Shown: positions 3 through 14,868, counted from the first letter of the stretch. The stretch: 64,000 bases of DNA from Candidatus Bathyarchaeota archaeon (GCA_963769425.1 CAVYLP010000003.1:64001-128000); one strand, 5' to 3'. Notes: generated from the sequence alone by a model not told the origin. Numbers and translations: made by a program.

Positions 3-554
3 GTAATAACCGGTAAACACGGTCCATTTCATGTCCACTTCCGCGCAAAAGATAAAGCGAACATCTCGATCGGCGATAAGGTCCAGTTCAAGGCTTGGGG
101 GGTTGGATTAAAGATCAAAGGTTATGAAGATGTGAATATACATAAGTGCGGACCAGAACTTCTCGAAAAAATGGGGATAGAGATCAAAAATGGTCGACTG
201 CTTGTGCCAGTCGTCGCTGAGTTCCCTGCCGAGATCATGGGATCAGGCTATGGTATGTCCCCACACTCAATCGACTACGACATCCAGAGCACGTGCCCAG
301 ATGTTGCTGTTGAGCTGGGTGTAGATAGGCTGCGCCTCGGCGACTTCGTTGTTTTAAGGGACCAGTTAAACGATTATGGTAGGGGATATTACAAGGGTGC
401 AGTTAGTATAGGAGTCGTAATCCACGGCTGGAGTAATCACCCGGGACATGGACCAGGCGTAACTACGTTAATCAGCGCGAGACCTGGCAGGGTAATGACC
501 ACAATCAATCCTGAAGCCAACATCGTTAATGCCCTAAATCTTAGTTTGGATTAA
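3..554 (+). CDS. DUF4438-family protein, 5'-truncated by window edge
   Basis: Frame of ORF 132..554 is open from position 3 (VITGKHG...IGDKVQFKAWGVGL). IMGSGYG..DYDI, LRLGDFV, YGRGY and GHGPGVT resemble DUF4438 proteins as I recall them. Confidence 0.7.
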   Translation, partial: VITGKHGPFHVHFRAKDKANISIGDKVQFKAWGVGLKIKGYEDVNIHKCGPELLEKMGIEIKNGRLLVPVVAEFPAEIMGSGYGMSPHSIDYDIQSTCPDVAVELGVDRLRLGDFVVLRDQLNDYGRGYYKGAVSIGVVIHGWSNHPGHGPGVTTLISARPGRVMTTINPEANIVNALNLSLD

Positions 555-972
555 TCCCGGAATTCGTCGTCTTTGAATCATTTTTAGGACCAGAATATAT
601 GCGGATCCCAATCGCACCGCCAAATATAAATGCGATTAGTATGAGGAAATCATTTACATTAATAGAAATACCACTAATGAATAGAAAAAGAGAGTAAAAT
701 AAATAGGCAATAAAACCCAATAGAACACCGACAGAGACATTAGTGTCTGGATAACGTCTCTTGAATAAATTTGATACTGCAACTCCGCTTAATAATGAAG
801 AGGAAAATATCACACCAAAATAAAGGTAGGGGTCAGCAGTAATGAACGTAACTAAAATGAGGGCCATAATATAAGCAGGCGTTGCTTCTAATACTCCCCC
901 TGATACATAAATTTGTAATGGAGTTTTAGTAGTTTTTTCTAAATTTTCCACGTTAATACGATGAATCAACAC
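541..972 (-). CDS. Hypothetical 4-TM membrane protein
   Basis: AT-rich ORF with four hydrophobic segments; co-oriented after the M29 gene; start uncertain. Confidence 0.55.
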   Translation of the reverse strand: MLIHRINVENLEKTTKTPLQIYVSGGVLEATPAYIMALILVTFITADPYLYFGVIFSSSLLSGVAVSNLFKRRYPDTNVSVGVLLGFIAYLFYSLFLFISGISINVNDFLILIAFIFGGAIGIRIYSGPKNDSKTTNSGINPN

Positions 973-1000
973 AATAAATATCTTTTGAGACGAGCACGGC

Positions 1001-1970
1001 TCATATGGTGAATTTTCCAGAATCCATCACGATGAAGGGCTTTTGGTCTTGCTTCGTCACGGTGATTGTAGGATGCTCAACTAGTAGAATCCATATGGGT
1101 CTTTGATGGGTAAAAGCTCCCTCCAAAAGCCACATGTATGGTACCTATCACCTTCTCTGCCTCGAGGAACTCATCGACGAGTCTTGCTTTCGGGTTTATT
1201 CCAAAGGAGAATTCTCCCAAGTATCTCGACCCAGGGTCTCTTCGAAGTTCCTCCTCTATTCGACTCTTGATTTTCTTGTCGCTACATTTGACTAAGCCTG
1301 CTTTGCCATTTTTGGAACTGATCTCGACTGGAGTTTCGCGGTAGAGTCTGTCGAATCCGCCTGATGTGCAGACAAGTTTTCCATCAAATGAGTCACCCAC
1401 GGGAGGCATGCACATAACTTCACCACATGGTAGGTTGCCACCGTATTCTACTATGAATTCATGGTCTATTCTGAATGTGAAGTCGGCGCCTAACTGGCTC
1501 TGTACTCTAACCTTCTTTGTATCCTTCAGTTTCTCTCTGAGCTTCTCGCCGAAGGCAAACATCGACTCGTATTCAGCATCTGTAAGGGAAGCAGCGCCCT
1601 CTGTGAACATGTCTATCGTTAGACCTGGGCAGTGACAGATTCTTGCTGATTTATGCCGTTCGAGTTTGTTGAACTGGATCCTGTAGGCTGTCTCTTCACC
1701 AGAGTTTCTGAAGAGGTTAATATACAGGTCTGGTTTATTTGCAGCAATTAGCTCCTTCGTGTGATCATCAAGTTTGGTTCGTATGTTGCTGCTTGTATCC
1801 ATCATACATAACTTCGTCCAGAGACCGAGTTCGAGTGTAGCCCTCGAAAATAAGTCTCCAAGTGGCTTCAACTCTGAGTCGCAAAATATGAGGGCTGATT
1901 CACCCACAGTAGCGTCTCGTGTGTTAAAAAGTGCAGTCTTAACTGCTGAAAGGGCATCCAATCGAGTCAC
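1001..1970 (-). CDS. M29-family (aminopeptidase T / thermophilic metalloprotease) aminopeptidase, +1 frameshift near 1089
   Basis: GNLPCGEV, LGEFSFGINP, EAEKVIGTIHVAFG, THMD motifs. Removing one base after HMD gives LLVEHPTITV...MDSGKFTI* ending at TGA 1003-1001. Confidence 0.8.
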
Positions 1971-2668
1971 ATCTCGTATCCCATCGATTTTCTCAACAGA
2001 TTCCTCGTTTTCAGTACATAGACGGTTGCTACGATGACGACTATCATTCCGATTGTGAGGTACATGTTATCGGAATTCAGAAGCATTACCATCCTTCCAT
2101 TCACTAGAGCAGTTCTGCTCATGAAGGTGTTAGCGAAGTAGGCACCGAAGGCGATGTATATCAGGTAGTATCCGATGCGGGACGTCGTTCCCAAGGCTCC
2201 TGTGTGTGGCCTCGAGAAGTAGAAGTACAGCAGAGAGGTTATCACAGTGACAACCACCAGGATGTTCTCAAGAGATTGCGTCAGGTTTCCGGTGATGAAT
2301 AGAGGCACTATTGTCGCTTGGATCTGGCTTGTGAGACTGACTTCTATCACTGCCCTCAATGTGATGCCCATACCGACGCCTATGGAGAGCGCGATTGGGT
2401 ATCTTGCTACCCATCGATATTTCTCTGTGTACCTGAGATACGTTGCTAAGCCAAGGAGAATGGGGATTATGACTAGATAGTTTCCGCTCTGTAGTGGAGT
2501 TATACCGTAGTCCATGATGAAGCCTATCGCAGCCACGAGGGCGAAGGCTTGGGCTGTAGCAACGAATGTGTGTTCAGCGAAGACTGTGAAGGGATTATCT
2601 TTGAACAACATACTGAAAATGCATAGGGTGAAGAAGACTACAAGTAGACTATCTAAACCAATGACCAT
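1967..2668 (-). CDS. Uncharacterised polytopic membrane protein of the GlmL-like cluster
   Basis: About 7 hydrophobic segments; FKDNPFTVFAEH, YFYFS and FGAYFANTFMSR motifs; overlaps both neighbours (translational coupling). Confidence 0.75.
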   Translation of the reverse strand: MVIGLDSLLVVFFTLCIFSMLFKDNPFTVFAEHTFVATAQAFALVAAIGFIMDYGITPLQSGNYLVIIPILLGLATYLRYTEKYRWVARYPIALSIGVGMGITLRAVIEVSLTSQIQATIVPLFITGNLTQSLENILVVVTVITSLLYFYFSRPHTGALGTTSRIGYYLIYIAFGAYFANTFMSRTALVNGRMVMLLNSDNMYLTIGMIVVIVATVYVLKTRNLLRKSMGYEM

Positions 2669-3483
2669 TACTTCTTACCTCCTATCCCCACGAAGTACAC
2701 TATATTGCCAATAACCACGGCTGCTATCAGCCATAGGTGGGCGATTGAGAGAACGTCGGTGCTCTCTACTCCTAGACCGGGGGTTTTTGTCAGTATCTCG
2801 AATTCGCCTGCTCCTCTGACGCTGGAGAGCAACCCAGAGATCTGGCCTGCTTGGAAATATGGAAGCATAGTAGGCAGCATAACACCTGTTTCGCCGGCTA
2901 TGACTTTGTTATTAAATTTCTGTTGGAACTGCATGAGGAAACTAGTGGCGCTAGCTGAGCCTGAATCGAATGTTATTATCAGTGTTATGTCAGCACCGGT
3001 TTTTACGTTATCGAGGAAAGTTCCGGAGATCGAGTTACCGTAGTAATCATTGTGCACAACACCGTGGAAGTTAGTTGCTAATGCGGCTAACCCAGTGTCC
3101 CAACCCGCGACGTACCCTATATTGACATAGTCTTGACCGTATTTTTTCCCTTCCAAGTTAACGTTTTTCAGAGTATAGTCGATCCACTGAGAACCCATAG
3201 TCCATGCGCTAAAGTAGATCACCTTGAGGGGTCTGGTCATTAGAAACTGTGTGGTGTCGAGGACTTGTGGGCCCAGTTCGCCCCAGGATGCTGCGTCGCC
3301 ACCGTAGTGGACCAGCACGATGCTGCCTGATGGTAAGTTTACAACGGTGTTATAGTAGTCCTGAGTATACTGGCTTACCGTTATCGGTAATCCTAGTGGG
3401 TGAAGTATAGGGATAGCTATGGCTATGAACATGATTATGTACACTATTCGCTTCTGGTTTTGGTAGCCATTTAACCAACTCAT
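2668..3483 (-). CDS. Membrane-anchored protein (N- and C-terminal TM, ~200-aa soluble domain) of the GlmL-like cluster
   Basis: TM-soluble-TM layout; YGQDYVNIGY, PYFQAGQISGLL and GAGEFE motifs. Confidence 0.75.
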   Translation of the reverse strand: MSWLNGYQNQKRIVYIIMFIAIAIPILHPLGLPITVSQYTQDYYNTVVNLPSGSIVLVHYGGDAASWGELGPQVLDTTQFLMTRPLKVIYFSAWTMGSQWIDYTLKNVNLEGKKYGQDYVNIGYVAGWDTGLAALATNFHGVVHNDYYGNSISGTFLDNVKTGADITLIITFDSGSASATSFLMQFQQKFNNKVIAGETGVMLPTMLPYFQAGQISGLLSSVRGAGEFEILTKTPGLGVESTDVLSIAHLWLIAAVVIGNIVYFVGIGGKK

Positions 3484-3488
3484 TCAAA

Positions 3489-4127
3489 TCACTTCTCCGA
3501 AGTTCCGGCCAGGAAACCATACTCCTTGCCGGTCATGACCCTTAGAGCGAGGGCAACTGCAGCCAATGTGATACTTATGCCAATGCCTCTGCTCACGCCC
3601 ATTGTTGGATAATTTAATATGAATGTGCCAATTGGGTCGAATCCTCCCCATATGATTGCACCGATAGGTGCGTTTTTCAAGAGAACTATAAATGCGGATA
3701 TGAGGAGCAGTGATGACTCGATGCTCTTGAATCTGAATGATTTGTAGGCTGCGGACGCCATGTAGAAGAGGGCTATTGAGTAGAATGTGGCGCTAAGTGG
3801 GGAGTACACGTTATTGTATATGTAGCTTGAGATATCACCCGAGTTCCCCTGAATTACGCCTATGATCGAAGTTATAGAGGTCAATAGAATAAACCAGGCG
3901 GCATAGTACCATCCAGGTCTTCTTTTAGCAATTTTTTTCCCGTAATTCTGAAACATGTTGATGAAACCGAGTCCGATTGCGAAAGCTGCTATAACTGTTC
4001 CCCAGTTGGTTAGTTGATCGGTGGTTGCCCTAAGGATGGGTATATCGAGGTTCCAATCTAAGAGGAAAACGATGATTGCTATCGCTGTGATTGCTATCGA
4101 TATCTCCTTACGTTTATACCATGACAT
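3489..4127 (-). CDS. Uncharacterised polytopic membrane protein of the GlmL-like cluster
   Basis: About 6 TM; PLSATFYSIALFYMASAAYKSFR and ALRVMTGKE motifs. Confidence 0.75.
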   Translation of the reverse strand: MSWYKRKEISIAITAIAIIVFLLDWNLDIPILRATTDQLTNWGTVIAAFAIGLGFINMFQNYGKKIAKRRPGWYYAAWFILLTSITSIIGVIQGNSGDISSYIYNNVYSPLSATFYSIALFYMASAAYKSFRFKSIESSLLLISAFIVLLKNAPIGAIIWGGFDPIGTFILNYPTMGVSRGIGISITLAAVALALRVMTGKEYGFLAGTSEK

Positions 4128-4138
4128 TTCAATGCCTC

Positions 4139-4927
4139 CTAAACGCTAAGAAGTATGGATACGATGTTGTATCCGAATATTGCAACCACAGCACCGACGA
4201 CGATTAAACCGACAACAAAGATTTTGCCCCAGTCTTGGCCACGAAGGCTTCCTATCTCCACGGGATCCTTTGAGAGATAAGCTCCAGCTGCATAAAGCTC
4301 CTCACCGATAAGTACATAATCAGCTATACAAGCCAGCACTGCCGTCTGCTGATAGTTTTGGCCGCTGCCAGCGATGACGATAGCCCCAACCGACTCCGCT
4401 TCCTCACTCAAAGCCAGTTGTTCGGGGCCATACAGTCCAGTGAAGGCGGCTGCGGCAATGTTTTTTTCGTGGATCAGCCCTATTTGGCCGGTAGCCCACG
4501 CAAACTGGTCTTCTGAGAGGAATATCACATTCTCTGGTTTAAAGTCCTCAATTCTTCCCTCGTCATCGTAGGCGTTCCTAACAGTTTCGACAGCCTGAGG
4601 GTAGATGATAGATGTCCCTATGTCTCCACCAGCGGGGACGTATAATGTTGTATGTGTGCGCGCTGCAATTTTGGCAATATAACCCGTTATGCTCAAGGCC
4701 GCTAGCGTGTTTGGGCCAAAACTATCTAAACCATAGCCACTCATAACAGGGCGGTTCATCTCCGAAGACCTTTCAACAGCCTCCTCGATAGCATCTAGTG
4801 CGGCAACTTTTCTGATATATGGTAACTCCTTGGCTTTTCCAGCCTGCGTCATCAGATAATAAATCACTAAAAAAAGTCCGATGAGCACGGCAAATGGAAA
4901 AGCCTTGCCAGGGAATAACAGTAACAA
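4139..4927 (-). CDS. DUF6754-like membrane-anchored protein
   Basis: IRKVAALDAIEEAVERSSEMNRP, QFAW, DYVLIGEELYAAGAYLS, GSLRGQD motifs; N- and C-terminal TM. Confidence 0.75.
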   Translation of the reverse strand: MLLLFPGKAFPFAVLIGLFLVIYYLMTQAGKAKELPYIRKVAALDAIEEAVERSSEMNRPVMSGYGLDSFGPNTLAALSITGYIAKIAARTHTTLYVPAGGDIGTSIIYPQAVETVRNAYDDEGRIEDFKPENVIFLSEDQFAWATGQIGLIHEKNIAAAAFTGLYGPEQLALSEEAESVGAIVIAGSGQNYQQTAVLACIADYVLIGEELYAAGAYLSKDPVEIGSLRGQDWGKIFVVGLIVVGAVVAIFGYNIVSILLSV

Positions 4928-5171
4928 TTTAAGTCAGATTAATCGATATTTGTGATACATATTAATAACTTTCCATTAAAACTTATTTCATTTGAGGAAA
5001 AATTTAGTATTTTTTAGTCAATTAAGTAATATTCACGACTGATTAACTGGATGAAATACTATTTTTATCAATTATGTCATATTTTAAAACACTAATACTT
5101 ACTTATTATTTAACTTAATAACCATCAATTTTCTAACTTACTGCCGGGAAGAGAATGATATGAATAAGTTA

Positions 5172-6326
5172 TCACTCATCTAGTACCTCAATGTTCGCTC
5201 TCGGCAGAGTCACCCGCTTCCCGTTATTTAGTTCAACCTCGACTACCCTCACGTCTGCTTCTGTCTCAACCTTGTGAAGATTGATTGGCAGACTAATGAC
5301 AGTGCCATTCTCCCCGAAATAGGGGGTCTGAATCACTCTTACAGGGGTTCCAACCCTCATAGTCGATGGAGCTTCTTCTTTCTCGTCTGTGGGGGGTGTT
5401 TCCTTGTTCGGAATGATGATCTCTGGACGTTGAACACCGGCCCTGATCTGGGTGGCGCCATTGATGTGGGCTAGATATCCGTTGAACTCGTTGAAGAGGT
5501 CAAAGGTTCTCTTCGACATCGCCATCTTGCCGAAGCCCTCGGTGATGATCAGGGTTAACCCAATTTCTTCTTCCCCGGTTATCGCCACTCCGATAGCGTG
5601 GCCTATAAAGCTCGTCAAATCTTCCTCTTTAATGCCTCCCGAGATTATGCCTGATACGCCGAGTTCAACAGCTTTTTTTAACGTCTCGAAGGTGACGATT
5701 CCCCCCGACACAAGTATGTTACCTTTATGTTCGGACTGAATCGCATCGGCTGAAAGTTGATCCTCTGGGGAACTTACCATCACAGCAATATTGCCGTGTG
5801 CCTCTCCGCCTACACCGAATATTCCCTGGATGAAAGCAGCCTCCGTCTCTATTACGGCGCCAACATCTTCGATGATCTCACTGACCCTTCCAGGAACATA
5901 TGCGTTCACACTGATGGGCTCCGGGTGAGTCCTGACAATGATCCTACCCGTCAAAGCTGAAACATTATCAACTACGCCATCTATTGGAGACCTAACGAAT
6001 TTTTTTATGAGTCCAAACATCGTTATGCACTGCGCGATAACCTCGTTCTCTTTGACAGGGTCACCAACCTTCTTCACTAAGTAACTCTCGAGCTCCTCAG
6101 AATCAACGTTCAGAATACCCGCTGCTTTAAGGATGTAGGGTCTTCCCGGCATTTTTACCTCGGCCACAACGGTGTCGTAGTCGACGACGTCCCCCAGTTT
6201 GACAACGACGTTGCCGTGCATTGGCAACTTCCTGATCTTCTTTACATCCACTCTTCTCTTGACTTTCAGGCCGGGTGAGTAAGCTTGTGCCTCGGAGGCA
6301 ACCGCGTCGGTTTCGATAATTGTCAT
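5172..6326 (-). CDS. Uncharacterised soluble protein with barrel-sandwich-hybrid repeats and C-terminal KOW-like motif
   Basis: VKLGDVV, VKKVGDPV, VRSPIDGVV and VNAYVPGRV hairpin motifs; ITEGFG; C-terminal VGTPVRVIQTPYFGENGTV. ATG at 6326 lies just after the glmL-like stop. Confidence 0.75.
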   Translation of the reverse strand: MTIIETDAVASEAQAYSPGLKVKRRVDVKKIRKLPMHGNVVVKLGDVVDYDTVVAEVKMPGRPYILKAAGILNVDSEELESYLVKKVGDPVKENEVIAQCITMFGLIKKFVRSPIDGVVDNVSALTGRIIVRTHPEPISVNAYVPGRVSEIIEDVGAVIETEAAFIQGIFGVGGEAHGNIAVMVSSPEDQLSADAIQSEHKGNILVSGGIVTFETLKKAVELGVSGIISGGIKEEDLTSFIGHAIGVAITGEEEIGLTLIITEGFGKMAMSKRTFDLFNEFNGYLAHINGATQIRAGVQRPEIIIPNKETPPTDEKEEAPSTMRVGTPVRVIQTPYFGENGTVISLPINLHKVETEADVRVVEVELNNGKRVTLPRANIEVLDE

Positions 6327-6330
6327 CAGT

Positions 6331-8142
6331 TTACACCTCCTTGTTCGGGTAAAGCCCCAGCGATTCATTCCAGGTTTTTATCTTTCGTTTACAGAGCTCT
6401 GGGCTTTCTGGGAATCTTATTGGTCTCCCCCTCGCGTCGATGTAGACCCCGACGACGCCGCCTTGTATGGTTGTTTTCAGGGTTTTCCCGGGCCCAGCCC
6501 CAACATCGAAACCCCGCGAAGGTGTGATCACCGCCTTCGCCTCATGCCCCTCGGGGAGGGAAACCTTCACTATCTCACCGAACTTTAGCTCTTTATCCAC
6601 TTTAGAGCCATCGGGTATCTCAAAGTTGACCCTTAGTGCCTCCGCTCCGAACTCAGCTGTGCCGACTGGAGCGATGACAGTTCCAACCCTCACAAGGCAA
6701 TCTTTGTCGAATATCTGCCATGCCGCATCCGGGTGGATTGTAGAGAGAACGCCGAGGTGAGGCATCATGAAGACGCTGTCTTGGAAGATCCTTGTAACGC
6801 CCTCTGGTTGAAACGCGTCGGTCATTATGAGCATCGACTGCTCGCGTCTTGGGGCATGTGAAAGGAGGCCTCCGGTACCAGCTATAATTCTTATCTTCAT
6901 CATGTCTATGTATGACTCTGCAAGCTCCTGGTTGAGGATCTGGTCGAGGTCCCTCTTCTCACCGACGCCCTTGAGGCGTGTTGCTATGCTTTTATGGTGG
7001 ACTAGTCCTAGCCTAAGGGCCTCCCTAGCGACAGCGTGTTCCAAGATCAAGTTATCTAGTGTATGAGGTATGATTGTGGGCCGGATCATCTTATTCATGA
7101 GCCTGTTCTTAACCTCAGATTCGTCGAGGTCGAATGGGAGCCACCTCACAATATTCTCGACACCTGTCTCGAGGAGCACGTTACATATGCTGTAGCTCAT
7201 CCCGAGGTTGGCGCTGACGCTCCTCACGAACCTCCCATCAAAGATCGAGTAGATATTTGTGGTGGCTCCACCTAGCCCCACACCTAAAACGTTCTCCTTG
7301 AATGTGTTGGCGATGAGCTGCATCGCCATCCCCTCGCCGCCGGGGGTGGGCATTATGTCGATGTTTGTCCACTTCATCAGATCGGGATACCCTGGGGCGT
7401 GGGACATTACATGCTTCATGAATATCTCGTGTATGGCTCGTCTTGCGGGCTCTGTGTTCTCCACATCCAGTTTCGGTCGCAAATTCGGGACGCTTGTGAA
7501 GTCGAAGTCCTTGCACAAGATCTCCTTAACCTCCTCGGTGGCATCTTTGTTACCCGCGTAGAGGAGGGGGAGGCTATAATCTACCCCGAGCCTCGGTTTA
7601 GGCTCCGCCGCCTTAATCAGCTCCGCGGTTTCGAGAACGACCTTTATCGCGCCGCCATCCGTTCCTCCTGCTAATAGGATCATGTCTGGCCTGAGGCTTC
7701 GAATCCTCTGTATTTTGACGTAGTCTGGCCGCAGGTCGTTAGTGGCGATCACATCCATGACCATCGCTCCGGCGCCGAGTGCAGCCCTGTTCGCGCTCTC
7801 AGCGGTGATCCCTTTCATCGCGCCGGCGACCATCATCTGCAATCCACCACCAGCGCTACTCGTTGTGCAATAGATGTCCACGCCCGAGTCGTTGATGCAC
7901 GGCATCGAGATCCCGTGTCCATCTGGGGAGAGTATCTTATGGTTGGTCAATTCTTCGATCTCCTTGATGGCGTTCTTAACACCCTGGGTTACGTTCTCGA
8001 AGGGTGCTTCCACGGTTGTAGGTGCCTCACCGGCTACGACGAATCTCCACCCGTCCGCCCTGTTGGCAAAGAAGCGGGCCTTAGTGGTTGTGCTACCGAC
8101 GTCGGTTGCCAGAATGTACCGAGCCTCCTCGAGTGGCTTCAT
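6331..8142 (-). CDS. GlmL/MutL-like (glutamate mutase L family) ASKHA-fold ATPase, long form
   Basis: Phosphate-1 loop TDVGSTTTK, TSSAGGGL, LLAGGTDGG, IMPTP, phosphate-2 loop GLGGATTN, NLGM, GTGG; extra C-terminal domain ending IDARGRP. Confidence 0.85.
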   Translation of the reverse strand: MKPLEEARYILATDVGSTTTKARFFANRADGWRFVVAGEAPTTVEAPFENVTQGVKNAIKEIEELTNHKILSPDGHGISMPCINDSGVDIYCTTSSAGGGLQMMVAGAMKGITAESANRAALGAGAMVMDVIATNDLRPDYVKIQRIRSLRPDMILLAGGTDGGAIKVVLETAELIKAAEPKPRLGVDYSLPLLYAGNKDATEEVKEILCKDFDFTSVPNLRPKLDVENTEPARRAIHEIFMKHVMSHAPGYPDLMKWTNIDIMPTPGGEGMAMQLIANTFKENVLGVGLGGATTNIYSIFDGRFVRSVSANLGMSYSICNVLLETGVENIVRWLPFDLDESEVKNRLMNKMIRPTIIPHTLDNLILEHAVAREALRLGLVHHKSIATRLKGVGEKRDLDQILNQELAESYIDMMKIRIIAGTGGLLSHAPRREQSMLIMTDAFQPEGVTRIFQDSVFMMPHLGVLSTIHPDAAWQIFDKDCLVRVGTVIAPVGTAEFGAEALRVNFEIPDGSKVDKELKFGEIVKVSLPEGHEAKAVITPSRGFDVGAGPGKTLKTTIQGGVVGVYIDARGRPIRFPESPELCKRKIKTWNESLGLYPNKEV

Positions 8143-8401
8143 GTCGTTCCCCTACCTTTCTTTAGATGAACTTAAAAAAACTCCTTTCTGTTTTACTCAC
8201 TTTAGACAAAAACAGTAGCGATGATTAAGAAACGTGGTCATCTTGTTTCATTTTCGACACAAATTAATGAATTTCCACAATGAGAGACACTGAATTTCTA
8301 ATACAAACACATTTTTACTATCTATCGAAGTCGCCGACTAGGATAGGTCGTAAATTATTTCTCCTCAACTCCCAGATGGACTAACCAGGAGTGTCGATGA
8401 A

Positions 8402-10210
8402 TTGGATGAGTTCTCGATTCTGATAACGGATACCGCCGTTGTCGATGGATCAGGTAAGCCTCCATACAGGGCTAGCATAGGTATAAGGGGAGACAAGGTC
8501 GAGCAGGTCGGTATGGTGAAAGGAGACGCCGTGACCGAGATCGACGGAAAGAAGCTCACAGCCATTCCGGGTTTTATAGACTCACACAGTCACGGGGATT
8601 TCAACATCCTCTTCTTCCCCCGTTGCGAAAGTTATCTCTACCAGGGCGTCACCACGATGGTGACTGGACAATGCGGCATGTCCCCCGCCCCGATAGGCGA
8701 TAAGATCACCCTACCAGGGATCGCAGAGTATTACCAGTTCGAGCTCGAACCCTACAAGTACGAGCCCACTCACACCGTCTACCCACGTGAGACAGTCAAC
8801 AGACTAATGAGGGAGAAATTTGGGTGGACGATAGACTGGCACTCAATGGCTGACTGGTTCAAAGTAGTAGAAGAGAAGAAGACGTCGATCAACCTCGCAA
8901 CCATGGTCGGTCACGTTACGGTAAGGAGGACCGTGATGGAGGATGATTTTGAGAGGCCGGCTAAAAAGGAGGAGAGGGATATGATGGCGTCACTGATCCG
9001 AAGGTCCCTAGATGAAGGGTGCATCGGTTTATCCATGGGTCTCGACTACGACCCGGACACCTTTGCCGACAGGGAAGAGCTTGTTGATGCGTGTAAAGTA
9101 GCCGCAGAGTACGGAGCCATCTTCGTCCCCCACTCCCGGAGGACGGGGAGGCGCAAAGGCGTAACCGCGGGTCAGAGGCCACACGACAAGATCGATGCCA
9201 TAAACGAGGTCATTGACCTCTGCCGCGCATCCAAGGTGCGCATGAATATCGCCCACCTCTTCACAGGCTGGTACATTAACCCGGACACCAGTTCGACGCT
9301 GGAGGAGGCGAATAGGAGAGCTACCCTCAAGGTCATAGACGACGCGATCAAGGAGGGACTCGATATCAGCTTCGATGCGCTCCCAAGTTGCATGACCTCA
9401 GTCTATGGAGGCGCCGCCTTCCTCTGCGGCAGCTTTGAACCATGGGTCAGGGAGAAGGGAAGCCGAGCCGAGTTCGCGAAGTGGCTCAATGTAGAAGAGT
9501 ACAGGCAGGAGATAAAGGACGCCGTAAAGGCGGGTAAGTGGTACACGAGAGAGGGACCCAATATAAATCCCCACTGGGCTGAAGGCATGACGATACTGAG
9601 ACATAGGGACCCAAACACAATAAACAAAACGATCGCAAAGATAGCGGAAGAGAGGAGCAAAGACCCCTACGACGTCTGGTTCGACCTGATAAGGGAGGAT
9701 CCAGATGCCCTATGTGGACATCCATTCACGTATCCCGGAGGACCGCCAGACCTTAACGCCGAATACCATAAAGTATTCTGGCAGCACCCAGCCGTGCCCT
9801 AGGGATCGTTCATGCAGACGTATACGATTACCAGTATGAACCCCCGGTCCCCACCTACATGCTGCCCATGGTCATGTTTTACTCAGCATTCCCCCATCAT
9901 TCCTAGAGAAATTCGTGATTCGCGAGAAGATACTCACGATAGAACAGGCAGATACAAAACCTCGACGCAGCCCGCGAAACGCTACGGTCTAAAGGGAAGA
10001 GGCGAGATAAAATCCAGATCCTTCGCCGATGTCGTTCTTCTAGAAATGGACAAGCTGAAGGTAAACGGAACACCCTTGGAGCCGAAGAAAAAACCATCAG
10101 GCATACCTTATGTCATCGTCAATGGCTCGGTGGTGATTGAAAATGGTGAACACACTGGTGCAAAGCCAGGCCAAGTGATCAGGAAGGCCTATAGCCTCCC
10201 ATCTTCTTAA
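8402..10210 (+). CDS. N-acyl-D-amino-acid deacylase (D-aminoacylase) family amidohydrolase, several frameshifts at 9790-9955
   Basis: VVDGSG, PGFIDSHSH, QGVTT..GQCG, MVGH; C-terminal PAKRYGLKGRG..ADVV..YVIVNG..GAKPGQVIR in the downstream frame. Confidence 0.8.
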
Positions 10211-10228: not shown

Positions 10229-10903
10229 TCAAGCTGAGACCACGCTATCAGGCGGTGCTTCACTGAACCTCGAGAGCACCTCATACGTCTTAAGAGCGTC
10301 CCTCTCAAAGACCAGTATAATCATCTCCGCATCACAACTCATGAAGTCGGTTATGTTAATCTCATTCATGTAGACCTCTGTAGTAATCGCGGAGATGACA
10401 CCCCGGGGTATTCGCAGCCTCCTCTGAGAGGGGAATCAGGATACCCGCAAGCCCTCGGTTCGTCTGCAGGATTCTCTGGCTCGGTAAAACATCTAGGACT
10501 TTATTGACGTTCTTCTCATCCATCGCAACCCTGATGTTTTCGAAACCCTTCACGAAGCGAAAGGTGTCCCCAGTATTGTAATCCGTTTCCAGGGAGATCT
10601 TTTTAGGAGAGTGACAATGTCGGGATCATTATCAAGAGTCATCCCTAATATCTTGTTCTTCAAGGTGAGCTTAGAGATTAGTCTCCCAATATTGCTGTAG
10701 TTCTCCATCATCTCAAGAATGGGGTAGCGTCGGATCGCACTGACCACAGCCTCAAGCGAGGTCTTCTCCCCAACCGTACCCTGAATAACTCTGGCGAGCG
10801 CCCTGATGTTGATGAGGTTTCTCGCAAGCCCCTTCTTTATGACCGCATCCTGCTCGATGGTCTCCTTCACCACGTCACTTAAAGAACGCGTCGAATTCGA
10901 CAT
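10229..10903 (-). CDS. ACT-domain putative amino-acid-responsive regulator (paralog 1), frameshifted near 10590 and 10400
   Basis: Pieces (LINIRALARVIQ..AIRRYP; TNRGLAGI; GVISAITTEVYMNEINITDFMSCDAEM) align directly with 11065..11727. Confidence 0.7.
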
Positions 10904-11064
10904 AAATGTAGCGTACACGACACATGGTTTAACATTTGCCGGATATTAGACACGTTTCTACACGAATATCTTCGACCCCAGAGAACATTGCGACTAGATT
11001 TAAGCTATCTTCCACTGCCGACATTCAAATATATGCACATATTAATTGAACCACTGACACGATC

Positions 11065-11727
11065 ATGGATGAGTCGCAGCAATCACTCAGCGATAACTTG
11101 AGAGAGATCATCGAAAAAGACCCTGTGATAAAACAAGCTCTTACAAGAGGATTCGTTAACATTAGGGCGCTTGCCAGAATGATTCAACCTCAGATGAGTG
11201 ATAAACCCACGCTCGAGGCCATCGTTAGCGCTATAAGGAGATATCCAGTCAACGAGAGTTACTCAAAATATAGCGAAATCGGGAAGCTCATCGGAAAGCT
11301 CACGATGAAAAATAAGATAGCAGCTTTGACGATAGAAAACGAACTAAACGTGAACCTGGCTCTCGACAAACTCTTGGCTGATACCTGGGTCAAAGGAGGA
11401 GACACTCTACACATCGTCAAGGGCATCAATTCTTTGAGGGTACTAGTTGACACTAAGAACCTGGACAAGCTTATTGCGGTTATTCCCAAGAAATATATTC
11501 GCAAAACCAACAGGGGGCTCGCCGAGATAGTGATTGGTATGAGCAACCTCCAGAGAAAGGCTCCAGAGATCGGCGTCATTGCCACTTTAACATCCGAGGT
11601 CGCTTTGAACGGTATAAGTCTCACCGACTTCATGAGCTGCGACGCAGAGATGATTGTCATAGTGCGTGAGAAAGATGCGTTGAGGTGTTACAAAACACTG
11701 GAGAAGTTAAGCCAAGAGGGTAGCTAA
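11065..11727 (+). CDS. ACT-domain putative amino-acid-responsive regulator (paralog 2)
   Basis: N-terminal VNIRALAR..AIVSAIRRY helical domain and C-terminal ACT-like GVIATLTSEVALNGISL. Confidence 0.75.
   Translation: MDESQQSLSDNLREIIEKDPVIKQALTRGFVNIRALARMIQPQMSDKPTLEAIVSAIRRYPVNESYSKYSEIGKLIGKLTMKNKIAALTIENELNVNLALDKLLADTWVKGGDTLHIVKGINSLRVLVDTKNLDKLIAVIPKKYIRKTNRGLAEIVIGMSNLQRKAPEIGVIATLTSEVALNGISLTDFMSCDAEMIVIVREKDALRCYKTLEKLSQEGS

Positions 11728-12632: not shown

Positions 12633-14868
<2,236 letters not shown>

What the first reader, a model, noticed from the sequence alone, without database searches (positions are those of the whole stretch)
1967..8142. Orphan GlmL-like ASKHA ATPase plus barrel-sandwich/KOW protein plus four membrane proteins: candidate new class of ATP-powered amino-acid/peptide transporter
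Seen: six co-oriented genes (the four membrane genes tightly coupled). They encode an actin/Hsp70-fold protein with intact phosphate loops (DVGSTTTK, GLGGATT), a soluble partner with repeated barrel-sandwich hairpins and a KOW tail, two polytopic membrane proteins and two TM-domain-TM proteins. Known: GlmL/MutL relatives are described as accessory/reactivating factors of B12 glutamate and aminomutases, but no mutase or B12-binding subunit lies in this window and the cluster has no ABC Walker motifs. The neighbours are an M29 peptidase, a D-aminoacylase-like enzyme, a DUF4438-like protein and two ACT regulators. Inference: a membrane complex energised by an ASKHA ATPase that imports or processes peptides or acylated amino acids.
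Basis: partly seen in the sequence, partly recalled or inferred. Interest (0 to 1): 0.9.

Follow-up and report, generated by a model that had tools for sequence, protein, structure and literature searches.

The report
Actin-fold ATPase linked to unknown membrane complex
A Bathyarchaeia archaeon carries a gene module, shared with many bacterial and archaeal phyla and apparently never studied, that joins an actin/Hsp70-fold ATPase and its partner protein to four unknown membrane proteins; it may be a new kind of ATP-driven membrane machine, possibly a nutrient importer.

Summary
Window 1967-8142 (minus strand) encodes six co-oriented genes:
- a long MutL/GlmL-family ASKHA protein;
- a partner with barrel-sandwich (BSH), swivelling and KOW-like domains;
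- four membrane proteins, A-D (A = DUF6754).

The genes are co-conserved. MutL sits directly upstream of BSH in 43 of 80 species-level loci, including 22 of 22 archaeal ones. All 46 longer BSH relatives found are MutL-BSH fusions. A-B-C-D follows in fixed order in archaea, several bacterial phyla and 30 of 46 metagenome loci with room.

No glutamate mutase is encoded in the genome. A-D and MutL match no solved protein by sequence. Three paper searches for the family names found no account of the module.

New points:
- this genome has four A-D cassettes but two ATPase pairs;
- a further small protein (S2) accompanies 82 of 123 MutL genes;
- the domain of A is probably cytoplasmic and that of C external;
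- bacterial A carries extra external domains.

Peptidase and amidohydrolase neighbours recur in Bathyarchaeia. Marine bacterial loci instead lie beside lipid-synthesis genes.

That the ATPase powers transport, and what the substrate is, remain inference; no contact between ATPase module and membrane module has been shown. The finding is probably new and deserves experiments.

The parts
6331..8142 (-). Long MutL/GlmL-family ASKHA (actin/Hsp70-fold) protein, 603 aa: the putative ATPase. It has a ~120-aa C-terminal extension that is conserved in the subfamily.
   Evidence: PF13941 E 3.8e-117. It scores below all three NCBIfam GlmL cut-offs. Phosphate-loop residues are invariant in 46 homologues, and extension occupancy is 0.99. 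No relative in PDB sequences.
5172..6326 (-). Partner protein 'BSH', 384 aa (the ORF is open to 6368). It has an N-terminal barrel-sandwich hybrid domain, a middle swivelling beta/beta/alpha-like domain and a C-terminal KOW-like barrel.
   Evidence: No Pfam family. At least 7989 relatives. AF2 model pLDDT 83.6. Only domain-level fold matches. Fused to MutL in 46 of 46 longer relatives and in L090.
4928..5171 (-). AT-rich 244-nt spacer between BSH and A. It may hold a separate promoter for the membrane genes; this is inference only.
   Evidence: Sequence read. The sigma-70 scan does not apply to an archaeon.
4139..4927 (-). Membrane protein A (DUF6754), 262 aa: TM - ~210-aa alpha/beta domain - TM. 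The domain is probably cytoplasmic.
   Evidence: PF20539 E 9.7e-59. Hydropathy and K/R counts. Bacterial homologues have a signal peptide and an external domain before TM1. No PDB sequence relative.
3489..4127 (-). Membrane protein B, 212 aa, polytopic (4-5 hydrophobic segments detected).
   Evidence: No family. Hydropathy. Always follows A in the loci surveyed. No PDB sequence relative.
2668..3483 (-). Membrane protein C, 271 aa: TM - Rossmann-like alpha/beta domain - TM. The domain is probably extracytoplasmic.
   Evidence: AF2 model pLDDT 90.2. Only generic Rossmann-like fold matches. K/R counts. Weak profile similarity to A, E 4.7e-4.
1967..2668 (-). Membrane protein D, 233 aa, polytopic (4-5 hydrophobic segments detected).
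   Evidence: No family. Hydropathy. Last gene of the fixed A-B-C-D order. No PDB sequence relative.
1077..1970 (-). Short M29-like peptidase, 297 aa. Its ORF overlaps the end of D, so it is probably co-transcribed with this cassette. It is specific to this locus and not part of the conserved core.
   Evidence: PF02073 E 4.4e-07, 29.5 bits against cut-off 27. Coordinates. No homologue beside the system in 80 other loci.
541..972 (-). Small membrane protein, 143 aa. It belongs to the 'S1' family that accompanies the system in archaeal loci.
   Evidence: It matches the S1 profile, built from the gene upstream of the second MutL copy and its relatives, at E 8.8e-09. S1 relatives occur in 11 loci and in L174, L180 and L186.

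Best explanation
The six genes are one copy of a widespread, uncharacterised two-module system.

**Module 1, cytoplasmic.** An ASKHA-fold ATPase of the MutL/GlmL superfamily works as one unit with a BSH-swivel-KOW partner. At most loci elsewhere a small soluble protein, S2, accompanies them.

**Module 2, membrane.** This is the fixed four-gene cassette A-B-C-D:
- A puts an alpha/beta domain in the cytoplasm.
- C puts a Rossmann-like domain outside the cell.
- B and D are polytopic and would form the path through the membrane.

**Proposed mechanism (inferred, not shown).** ATP binding and hydrolysis in module 1 is passed to the cassette, probably through the cytoplasmic domain of A, and drives movement of a substrate across the membrane. 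One ATPase module would serve several cassettes of different specificity, as the shared energising module of ECF transporters does.

In this archaeon the likely cargo is peptides or other amide-containing breakdown products of amino acids. They would then be cut by the exopeptidases and amidohydrolases encoded beside the cassettes.
For: **What the calls show**
1. MutL and BSH are one unit.
   - MutL lies directly upstream of BSH in 22 of 22 archaeal and 21 of 58 bacterial species-level loci.
   - 46 of 46 longer BSH relatives carry PF13941, that is, they are MutL-BSH fusions of about 990-1005 aa. L090 is another fusion.
2. The ATP-site motifs are invariant in 46 full-length homologues.
3. A-B-C-D keeps its order and tight spacing wherever it was seen.
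   - All 25 of the 80 loci that hold any cassette gene also hold MutL.
   - Among metagenome loci with at least 3.5 kb of room, 30 of 46 have the whole cassette and 36 of 46 have some of it, always as (MutL-BSH)-A-B-C-D on one strand.
4. The phyletic patterns agree.
   - Among 41 relatives, BSH and DUF6754 are each in 30. Comparing the two tables by hand, both are present in 28 and both missing in 9. The 4 discordant genomes are 62-84% complete.
   - In 5 genomes where BSH stands alone, MutL is elsewhere in 4 and DUF6754 elsewhere in 5.
5. Cassettes outnumber ATPase pairs.
   - This genome has 4 cassettes and 2 pairs.
   - G018 has 11 DUF6754 matches and 5 BSH matches.
   - L092 reads MutL-BSH-A-ABCD-ABCD.
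6. Topology. K/R counts put the domain of A inside and that of C outside. Bacterial A has a signal peptide and an external domain before TM1.
7. Context.
   - In this genome the cassettes lie beside amidohydrolases, M14, M29-like, creatininase-family, RidA-like and three AFOR genes.
   - In two related genomes, family-match rows among 68 neighbour ORFs were: 3 amidohydrolase, 3 M28, 2 M20, 2 creatininase, 2 DUF4910, and 1 each of S58, M55 and S15. One ORF can match more than one family.
   - In 22 species-level loci (140 ORFs): 4 TonB-dependent receptors, 4 PmbA/TldD and 8 glycine-cleavage P proteins.
Against: - No physical link between module 1 and the membrane cassette has been shown. No fusion joins A to MutL or BSH among 88 longer DUF6754 proteins.
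- About half of the cassettes in this genome and its relatives have no ATPase pair nearby, so a cassette might work alone.
- The folds found for the BSH and C domains are generic or middling (Z 7-10). No transporter fold was recognised. B and D were not modelled.
- In the marine bacterial lineage the flanking genes are plsX (9), fabH (6) and CdsA-like (3) of 98 ORFs, not peptidases.
- DUF6754 is in 39 of 41 sampled genomes of one bacterial phylum. This fits a housekeeping role as well as nutrient uptake.
- Neighbour tallies had no genome-wide background control.
- Kin genomes are not independent, so the phyletic agreement is weaker than the counts suggest.
Confidence: 0.4

Rival explanations
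1. Metabolic rather than energetic coupling. A-D is a self-sufficient permease or receptor. MutL-BSH (with S2) is a soluble ATP-dependent enzyme or chaperone that acts on the imported compound, for example ATP-dependent opening or activation of cyclic amides in the manner of hydantoinase/oxoprolinase.
For: - Some MutL homologues also match Hydantoinase_A (PF01968): and 17 of the 46 fusions by my count of its rows.
- BSH has invariant polar residues (E175, R295, R300, E302) that could form an active site.
- Amidohydrolase and creatininase-family genes recur beside the system.
- Many cassettes lack a nearby ATPase pair.
- BSH often stands alone among unrelated genes.
Against: - A substrate-specific enzyme would be expected to vary with the cassette. 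Instead one pair sits beside several cassettes (L092; L180).
- The gene order (MutL-BSH)-A-B-C-D with overlapping stops and starts is kept across phyla.
- No catalytic family was recognised in BSH.
Confidence: 0.22
2. A mechanotransmission or export machine rather than an importer. Cytoplasmic ATP hydrolysis would be passed through A-D to external domains that act on the envelope or on surface polymers, as FtsEX, MacB and LolCDE do with an ABC ATPase.
For: - C exposes a ~200-aa domain outside the cell.
- Bacterial A carries external domains. Among 88 longer forms, 12 carry PF13360, 2 carry PF00801/PF18911 and 1 carries PF00041 (I recall these as PQQ-like propeller, PKD and fn3).
- DUF6754 is in 39 of 41 genomes of one phylum.
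- Marine loci lie beside plsX, fabH and CdsA-like lipid-synthesis genes.
Against: - The paralogue expansion beside cytoplasmic exopeptidases, amidohydrolases and AFOR genes in Bathyarchaeia fits uptake and catabolism better.
- So do the TonB-dependent receptor genes directly downstream in 4 loci.
- Archaeal A has no external domain.
Confidence: 0.2
3. The MutL-like protein is an ordinary GlmL-type reactivating chaperone of a B12-dependent mutase, and the membrane genes are unrelated neighbours.
For: It belongs to Pfam MutL. One paper's figure legend (PMC4682846, one passage read) describes MutL/GlmL as a chaperone that reactivates glutamate mutase.
Against: - Its scores are far below the NCBIfam cut-offs: GlmL 211 against 475, Or-4 209 against 600, glmL_fam 159 against 204.
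- No PF06368 match in the 91%-complete genome.
- The six B12-binding matches all lie far from both MutL copies.
- Linkage to BSH and A-D is conserved.
Confidence: 0.03

Closest known systems
GlmL/MutL (glutamate mutase accessory protein) and the Or-4 protein of ornithine degradation (Pfam PF13941; NCBIfam NF040745, NF040744, TIGR01319)
   Same: The same Pfam family over residues 10-482 (E 3.8e-117), with the ASKHA phosphate and adenosine motifs.
   Different: - About 120 extra C-terminal residues, kept across the subfamily.
- Below every NCBIfam GlmL cut-off.
- No mutase in the genome.
- Always paired or fused with BSH and linked to membrane genes.
ECF-type and other ABC transporters (a shared energising module serving several membrane components)
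   Same: The logic is modular: a soluble nucleotide-hydrolysing module beside interchangeable membrane cassettes, with fewer ATPase modules than cassettes. This is a functional analogy only.
   Different: No ABC_tran or other P-loop domain in any of the six proteins. The membrane proteins share no detectable sequence similarity with solved transporters.
Type VII ABC systems (MacB, FtsEX, LolCDE): TM - large external domain - TM, driven from the cytoplasm (recalled from general knowledge, not tested)
   Same: C, and bacterial A, expose sizeable external domains anchored by flanking helices.
   Different: The ATPase fold differs, and there is no sequence relation. The domain of C is a generic Rossmann-like fold.
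RnfC/NqrA N-terminal barrel-sandwich domain; swivelling domains of PTS enzyme I, rifampin phosphotransferase and RraA; KOW domains of NusG/Spt5
   Same: Domain-level fold likeness of BSH:
- residues 61-135 to RnfC (Z 7.3) and NqrA (Z 7.2);
- residues ~142-310 to rifampin phosphotransferase (Z 8.9), enzyme I (Z 8.8) and RraA (Z 8.7);
- residues ~320-384 to KOW domains.
   Different: - The Z values are in the range the tool calls middling.
- No whole-protein match.
- The His that carries phosphate in PEP-utilising enzymes is not conserved here: the motif position is H, V, I, R, K, Q and others.
Hydantoinase A / 5-oxoprolinase-type ASKHA proteins (PF01968)
   Same: Some homologues and fusions also match PF01968 weakly.
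   Different: The window protein itself gave no PF01968 match at E <= 0.01. No Hydantoinase_B partner appeared in the Pfam scans of the six proteins or among the families listed in the neighbour tallies (each tally lists only its 25 commonest families).

Membership tests
Pfam MutL (PF13941), ASKHA superfamily | Score over the family's gathering cut-off across the whole profile | tested here: met
   392.3 bits against 27, profile positions 1-450 of 450.
ASKHA ATPases | Conserved phosphate-1, phosphate-2 and adenosine motifs | tested here: met
   D14, G16, S17, T18, T19 and K21, the GG-DGG motif and the GGATT motif are 100% conserved in 46 full-length homologues. ATP hydrolysis itself cannot be tested here.
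GlmL, methylaspartate mutase accessory protein (NF040745 equivalog) | Score at or above the curated cut-off (475 bits) | tested here: not met
   211.2 bits. Or-4 scores 208.6 against 600, and TIGR01319 scores 158.8 against 204.05.
GlmL, methylaspartate mutase accessory protein | Encoded with glutamate mutase subunits or another B12 mutase | tested here: not met
   No PF06368 match in the genome, which is 91% complete. The nearest PF02310 match is about 90 kb from the window copy, and none lies near the second copy.
DUF6754 (PF20539) | Score over the gathering cut-off | tested here: met
   Protein A scores 199 bits against 27. This is a family of unknown function.
ABC transporters | An ABC_tran nucleotide-binding domain in the system | tested here: not met
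   No PF00005 match in any of the six proteins at E <= 0.01.
PEP-utilising / PTS phosphohistidine swivel domains | Invariant phospho-accepting His in the GG-x-T-S-H-type loop | tested here: not met
   In the QGIxGxGGE-x-x-G loop the position is H in 28 of 32 aligned sequences. Across the 86 BSH ORFs of the survey it varies widely (V, I, R, K, Q and others).
Biotinyl/lipoyl carrier domains (PF00364) | Family match and a modifiable Lys at the hairpin tip | tested here: inconclusive
   The window protein has no match. The paralogue matches at E 4.7e-06 but with no single stretch that passes on its own. Lys conservation at the hairpin tip was not examined.
Peptidase M29 (neighbour at 1077-1970) | Score over the cut-off and full-length coverage | tested here: inconclusive
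   29.5 bits against 27, but only profile positions 192-351 of 406 are covered, in a 297-aa protein.
Known anti-phage defence systems (PADLOC) | Any component model matched | tested here: not met
   0 families for all six proteins at E <= 0.001.

The most novel reading that the evidence does not exclude
This would be the first class of membrane transport or translocation machine energised by an actin/Hsp70-fold (ASKHA) ATPase rather than a P-loop, P-type or rotary ATPase. A MutL-BSH(-S2) energising module would be shared among several interchangeable four-subunit membrane cassettes. The system occurs in Bathyarchaeia and other archaea and in many mostly uncultured bacterial phyla.
Probability: 0.35. 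Interest if true: 0.9.

Novelty: categorically new. Interest (0 to 1): 0.8.

Why it matters
If the reading is right, a fourth structural solution to ATP-driven membrane work exists, and it has been overlooked because its carriers are almost all uncultured.

The module is common:
- at least 589 matches in a collection that holds one genome per species;
- 39 of 41 sampled genomes of one bacterial phylum;
- up to 11 cassettes per Bathyarchaeia genome.

It probably bears on how sediment and deep-sea heterotrophs take up or handle organic matter.

It would also give a function to DUF6754, to several families with no name at all, and to the large 'glutamate mutase L' group, which automatic annotation currently mislabels.

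Even if transport is wrong, the ASKHA-BSH fusion and its fixed membrane partners define a testable new complex.

Tried and rejected
**Steps that gave no usable result**
- Complex prediction of BSH with the cytoplasmic domain of A (residues 26-238): verdict 'no answer'. I draw nothing from it.
- The look-up of sequencing runs on window 1000-8400: none was listed, and no RNA holder was listed.
- The protein-atlas search:
  - For BSH it returned only unnamed or BSH-type clusters in bacteria. These were used as a lead to the wide distribution.
  - For C, restricted to named clusters, it gave no usable hit.
- The sigma-70 promoter and terminator scan is not meaningful for an archaeon. It found fewer promoter-like sites than shuffles.

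**Ideas tested and set aside**
- A phosphohistidine relay in the BSH swivel domain: rejected, because the His is not conserved.
- A and C as clear paralogues: the evidence is only weak (my hhalign run gave E 0.0038; the tool gave E 4.7e-4 at probability 33%). B against D gave nothing.
- DUF4438, the M29-like peptidase and the 466-aa amidohydrolase as conserved partners: rejected. Each was found in 0-1 of the 80 other loci.
- A defence system: no PADLOC match.

**Searches that found nothing**
- PDB sequence searches with profiles of A-D and with MutL found nothing below E 0.4.
- Fold searches for C listed only common Rossmann-like chains.

**Papers**
- 'DUF6754' gave 0 papers and 'PF13941' gave 0.
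- 'GlmL' as a whole word gave 124 papers. The 25 listed looked like OCR noise for g/ml.
- 'GlmL / glutamate mutase / ASKHA' gave one paper, PMC4682846. I read one passage of it.
- 'actin-like ATPase / transporter / uncharacterized / WOR-3' gave 23 papers, 8 listed. From titles and abstract starts none concerns this module.
- 'TIGR01319 / glutamate mutase L / methylaspartate mutase accessory' gave one unrelated paper, seen in the listing only.
- Subscription journals and supplementary files were not searchable and could hold a description.

**Tool state**
It was sent again with that field added.

Full report
**What is in the window.**
Six ORFs lie head to tail on the minus strand between 1967 and 8142.
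- The first (6331-8142, 603 aa) matches Pfam MutL (PF13941) over residues 10-482 at E 3.8e-117. It then continues for about 120 residues.
- It scores far below the curated NCBIfam cut-offs: GlmL 211 against 475 bits, the ornithine Or-4 protein 209 against 600, and the broader glmL_fam 159 against 204.
- The second ORF (5172-6368) has no family. The public copy of this very protein is 384 aa. That places its start at 6326, 4 nt after the MutL stop.
- After a 244-nt AT-rich spacer come four tightly packed genes:
  - A (4139-4927, DUF6754, E 9.7e-59);
  - B (3489-4127);
  - C (2668-3483);
  - D (1967-2668).
- B, C and D have no Pfam or NCBIfam family.
- An M29-like ORF (1077-1970, marginal match) overlaps the end of D.
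- Names attached to homologues show that the organism is a Bathyarchaeia archaeon.

**The proteins.**
Their key residues, and the GG-DGG motif, are invariant in 46 full-length homologues. The C-terminal extension is present in 99% of aligned positions.
- *BSH.* The partner protein folds with good confidence (pLDDT 83.6). No whole-chain structural relative was found. Domain by domain it resembles:
  - a barrel-sandwich hybrid domain (RnfC Z 7.3, NqrA Z 7.2);
  - a swivelling beta/beta/alpha domain (rifampin phosphotransferase Z 8.9, PTS enzyme I Z 8.8, RraA Z 8.7);
  - a KOW-like barrel.
  
  These Z values are in the range the tool calls middling. The His that would make the swivel domain a phosphocarrier is not conserved, whereas a neighbouring Glu is invariant.
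- *A and C.* Both have the plan TM - ~210-aa domain - TM.
  - Lys/Arg counts place the domain of A in the cytoplasm and that of C outside.
  - Bacterial A proteins support this: they begin with a signal peptide and a ~100-aa external domain before the first helix.
  - C models at pLDDT 90.2 as a Rossmann-like alpha/beta domain between two long helices. Only generic fold matches were found.
  - A and C may be distant relatives (E 4.7e-4, probability 33%).
- *B and D.* Both are polytopic, with 4-5 hydrophobic segments detected.
- Profiles of A-D, and MutL itself, find nothing among PDB sequences.

**Is it a unit?** Yes.
- *Within this genome.*
  - The genome has four A-B-C-D cassettes and two MutL-BSH pairs.
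  - The second pair lies 3.5 kb from a cassette, separated by a flavin reductase gene and an M14 peptidase gene.
- *Species-level genomes.* A scan with a BSH alignment found 589 relatives, of which the best 80 loci were kept. I sorted these loci into archaeal and bacterial by their record titles.
  - MutL lies directly upstream of BSH in 22 of 22 archaeal and 21 of 58 bacterial loci.
  - Some cassette gene is present in 13 and 12 of them respectively.
  - All 25 cassette-bearing loci also hold MutL.
- *Fusions.*
  - A search for longer BSH relatives returned 46 proteins, and all 46 carry PF13941. They are MutL-BSH fusions of roughly 990-1005 aa (two are shorter).
  - L090 is another fusion.
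- *Metagenome contigs.* Scanning with one fusion gave 80 loci.
  - Of the 46 with at least 3.5 kb of flank, 30 hold the complete cassette and 36 hold part of it.
  - The order is always (MutL-BSH)-A-B-C-D on one strand, with small gaps or overlaps.
- *Phyletic pattern.*
  - Among 41 relatives of the window genome, BSH and DUF6754 are each found in 30.
  - Comparing the two tables by hand, both are present in 28 and both missing in 9. The four discordant genomes are 62-84% complete.
  - These genomes are kin, so this is weaker than the counts suggest.
- *Scattered arrangements.*
  - In Poribacteria, WOR-3 and Stahlbacteria, BSH stands among unrelated genes.
  - MutL is nonetheless found elsewhere in 4 of 5, and DUF6754 elsewhere in 5 of 5, such genomes.
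- DUF6754 was found in 39 of 41 sampled genomes of the phylum that contains G044, the genome of locus L060, a record titled candidate division WOR-3.

- *S2.* A small soluble protein with no Pfam family (~115-140 aa).
  - It lies immediately upstream of 82 of 123 MutL genes in all loci fetched by then. 110 of these were counted as having room upstream; room was checked only for plus-strand genes.
  - This genome has two copies. One lies before the second MutL. The other lies just after D of the contig-4 cassette, which has no ATPase pair.
  - In related genomes S2 sits next to either module.
- *Small membrane proteins.*
  - The archaeal family S1 includes window ORF 541-972 (E 8.8e-09).
  - An unrelated bacterial protein with weak PH-like matches occurs in 58 loci.

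**Context.**
- *This genome.* The cassettes lie beside amidohydrolases, an M14 carboxypeptidase, the M29-like gene, a creatininase-family hydrolase, a RidA-like gene and three aldehyde:ferredoxin oxidoreductase genes.
- *Two related genomes.* Around 17 cassettes, 68 neighbour ORFs gave these family-match rows: 3 amidohydrolase, 3 M28, 2 M20, 2 creatininase, 2 DUF4910, and one each of S58, M55 and S15. One ORF can match more than one family.
- *22 species-level loci with cassettes (140 ORFs).* The commonest families were glycine-cleavage P protein (8), TonB-dependent receptor (4), PmbA/TldD (4) and amidohydrolase (4).
- *Marine lineage (98 flanking ORFs).* Here the pattern differs: plsX (9), fabH (6), aldehyde dehydrogenase (4) and a CdsA-like gene (3).
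- No background rate was computed for any of these tallies.

**Not a mutase helper.**
- PF06368 was not found in the genome, which is 91% complete.
- The six B12-binding matches all lie far from both MutL copies.
- One paper's figure legend calls MutL/GlmL a chaperone that reactivates glutamate mutase (PMC4682846, one passage read). Nothing links that role to this subfamily.

**Mechanism.**
- *Shown.* An ASKHA protein with an intact ATP site, its obligatory BSH partner, and a fixed four-protein membrane cassette are inherited and arranged together across both prokaryotic domains.
- *Inferred.*
  - The soluble module hydrolyses ATP and drives the cassette.
  - The cytoplasmic domain of A is the docking site.
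  - One soluble module serves several cassettes.
  - The cassette moves a substrate, which in Bathyarchaeia would be peptides or related amides.
- *Rivals.*
  - A permease accompanied by an ATP-dependent enzyme of the hydantoinase type.
  - A mechanotransmission or export device. The external domains fused to bacterial A and the housekeeping context in marine bacteria favour this.
  - The mutase-chaperone reading, which is contradicted.

**Novelty.**
- Searches of the paper library found no account of the module:
  - DUF6754, PF13941, and TIGR01319 with its annotation names;
  - two wider keyword searches.
- Supplements and subscription journals could not be searched.
- I rate the module as probably new in kind. 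The transporter reading remains unproven.

Noticed in passing
window 8402-9802 and 9812-10210 (+): The D-aminoacylase-like amidohydrolase appears to be split. A 466-aa ORF is followed 9 nt later by a 132-aa ORF in another frame. That second ORF carries the last ~60 positions of the Amidohydro_3 profile (E 5e-4, below cut-off). This could be a frameshift, a pseudogene or an assembly error.
   Followed up: partly
window 12633-14552 and 14467-14850 (-): A catalase-peroxidase-like ORF of 639 aa, judged from its sequence only (no family scan), seems to lack its N-terminus. An overlapping 127-aa ORF upstream looks like the missing start in another frame. This may be another frameshift.
   Followed up: no
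G000 contig 6, 415-423 kb (L008:1506-8091): Three tandem aldehyde:ferredoxin oxidoreductase genes (622, 622 and 615 aa) and a RidA-like gene lie directly upstream of one A-B-C-D cassette. This fits amino-acid fermentation.
   Followed up: partly
relatives G019, G023, G014, G004 and others: Many related genomes hold a second, shorter BSH paralogue (~295-325 aa, covering profile positions ~21-310). It lacks the KOW-like tail, and several matches contain an in-frame stop. Its context was not examined.
   Followed up: no
L031, L033, L035, L055, L057 (Bacillota): These loci carry two MutL-BSH pairs in tandem. In L035, L055 and L057 the arrangement is A-B-C-D, then MutL with a longer BSH (452-483 aa), then a second MutL-BSH pair. 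The 453-aa BSH of L031 matches RnfC_N.
   Followed up: partly
L091 and several WOR-3 genomes: DUF6754 genes occur as adjacent duplicates (A-A-B-C-D), and cassettes occur in tandem arrays (L092: A, ABCD, ABCD after one MutL-BSH pair).
   Followed up: partly
L007:15553-16416 and five other loci: A DUF483-like protein (~290-340 aa) recurs just downstream of the system: in this genome's second locus, in L020 and L024, and in three Bacillota loci.
   Followed up: no
window 10550-10918 (-) and 11065-11727 (+): These two divergently placed genes share an N-terminal region, as read from their translations. The longer one matches DUF7523 and, below cut-off, ACT_7. The 'ACT regulator' label is therefore weak.
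   Followed up: partly
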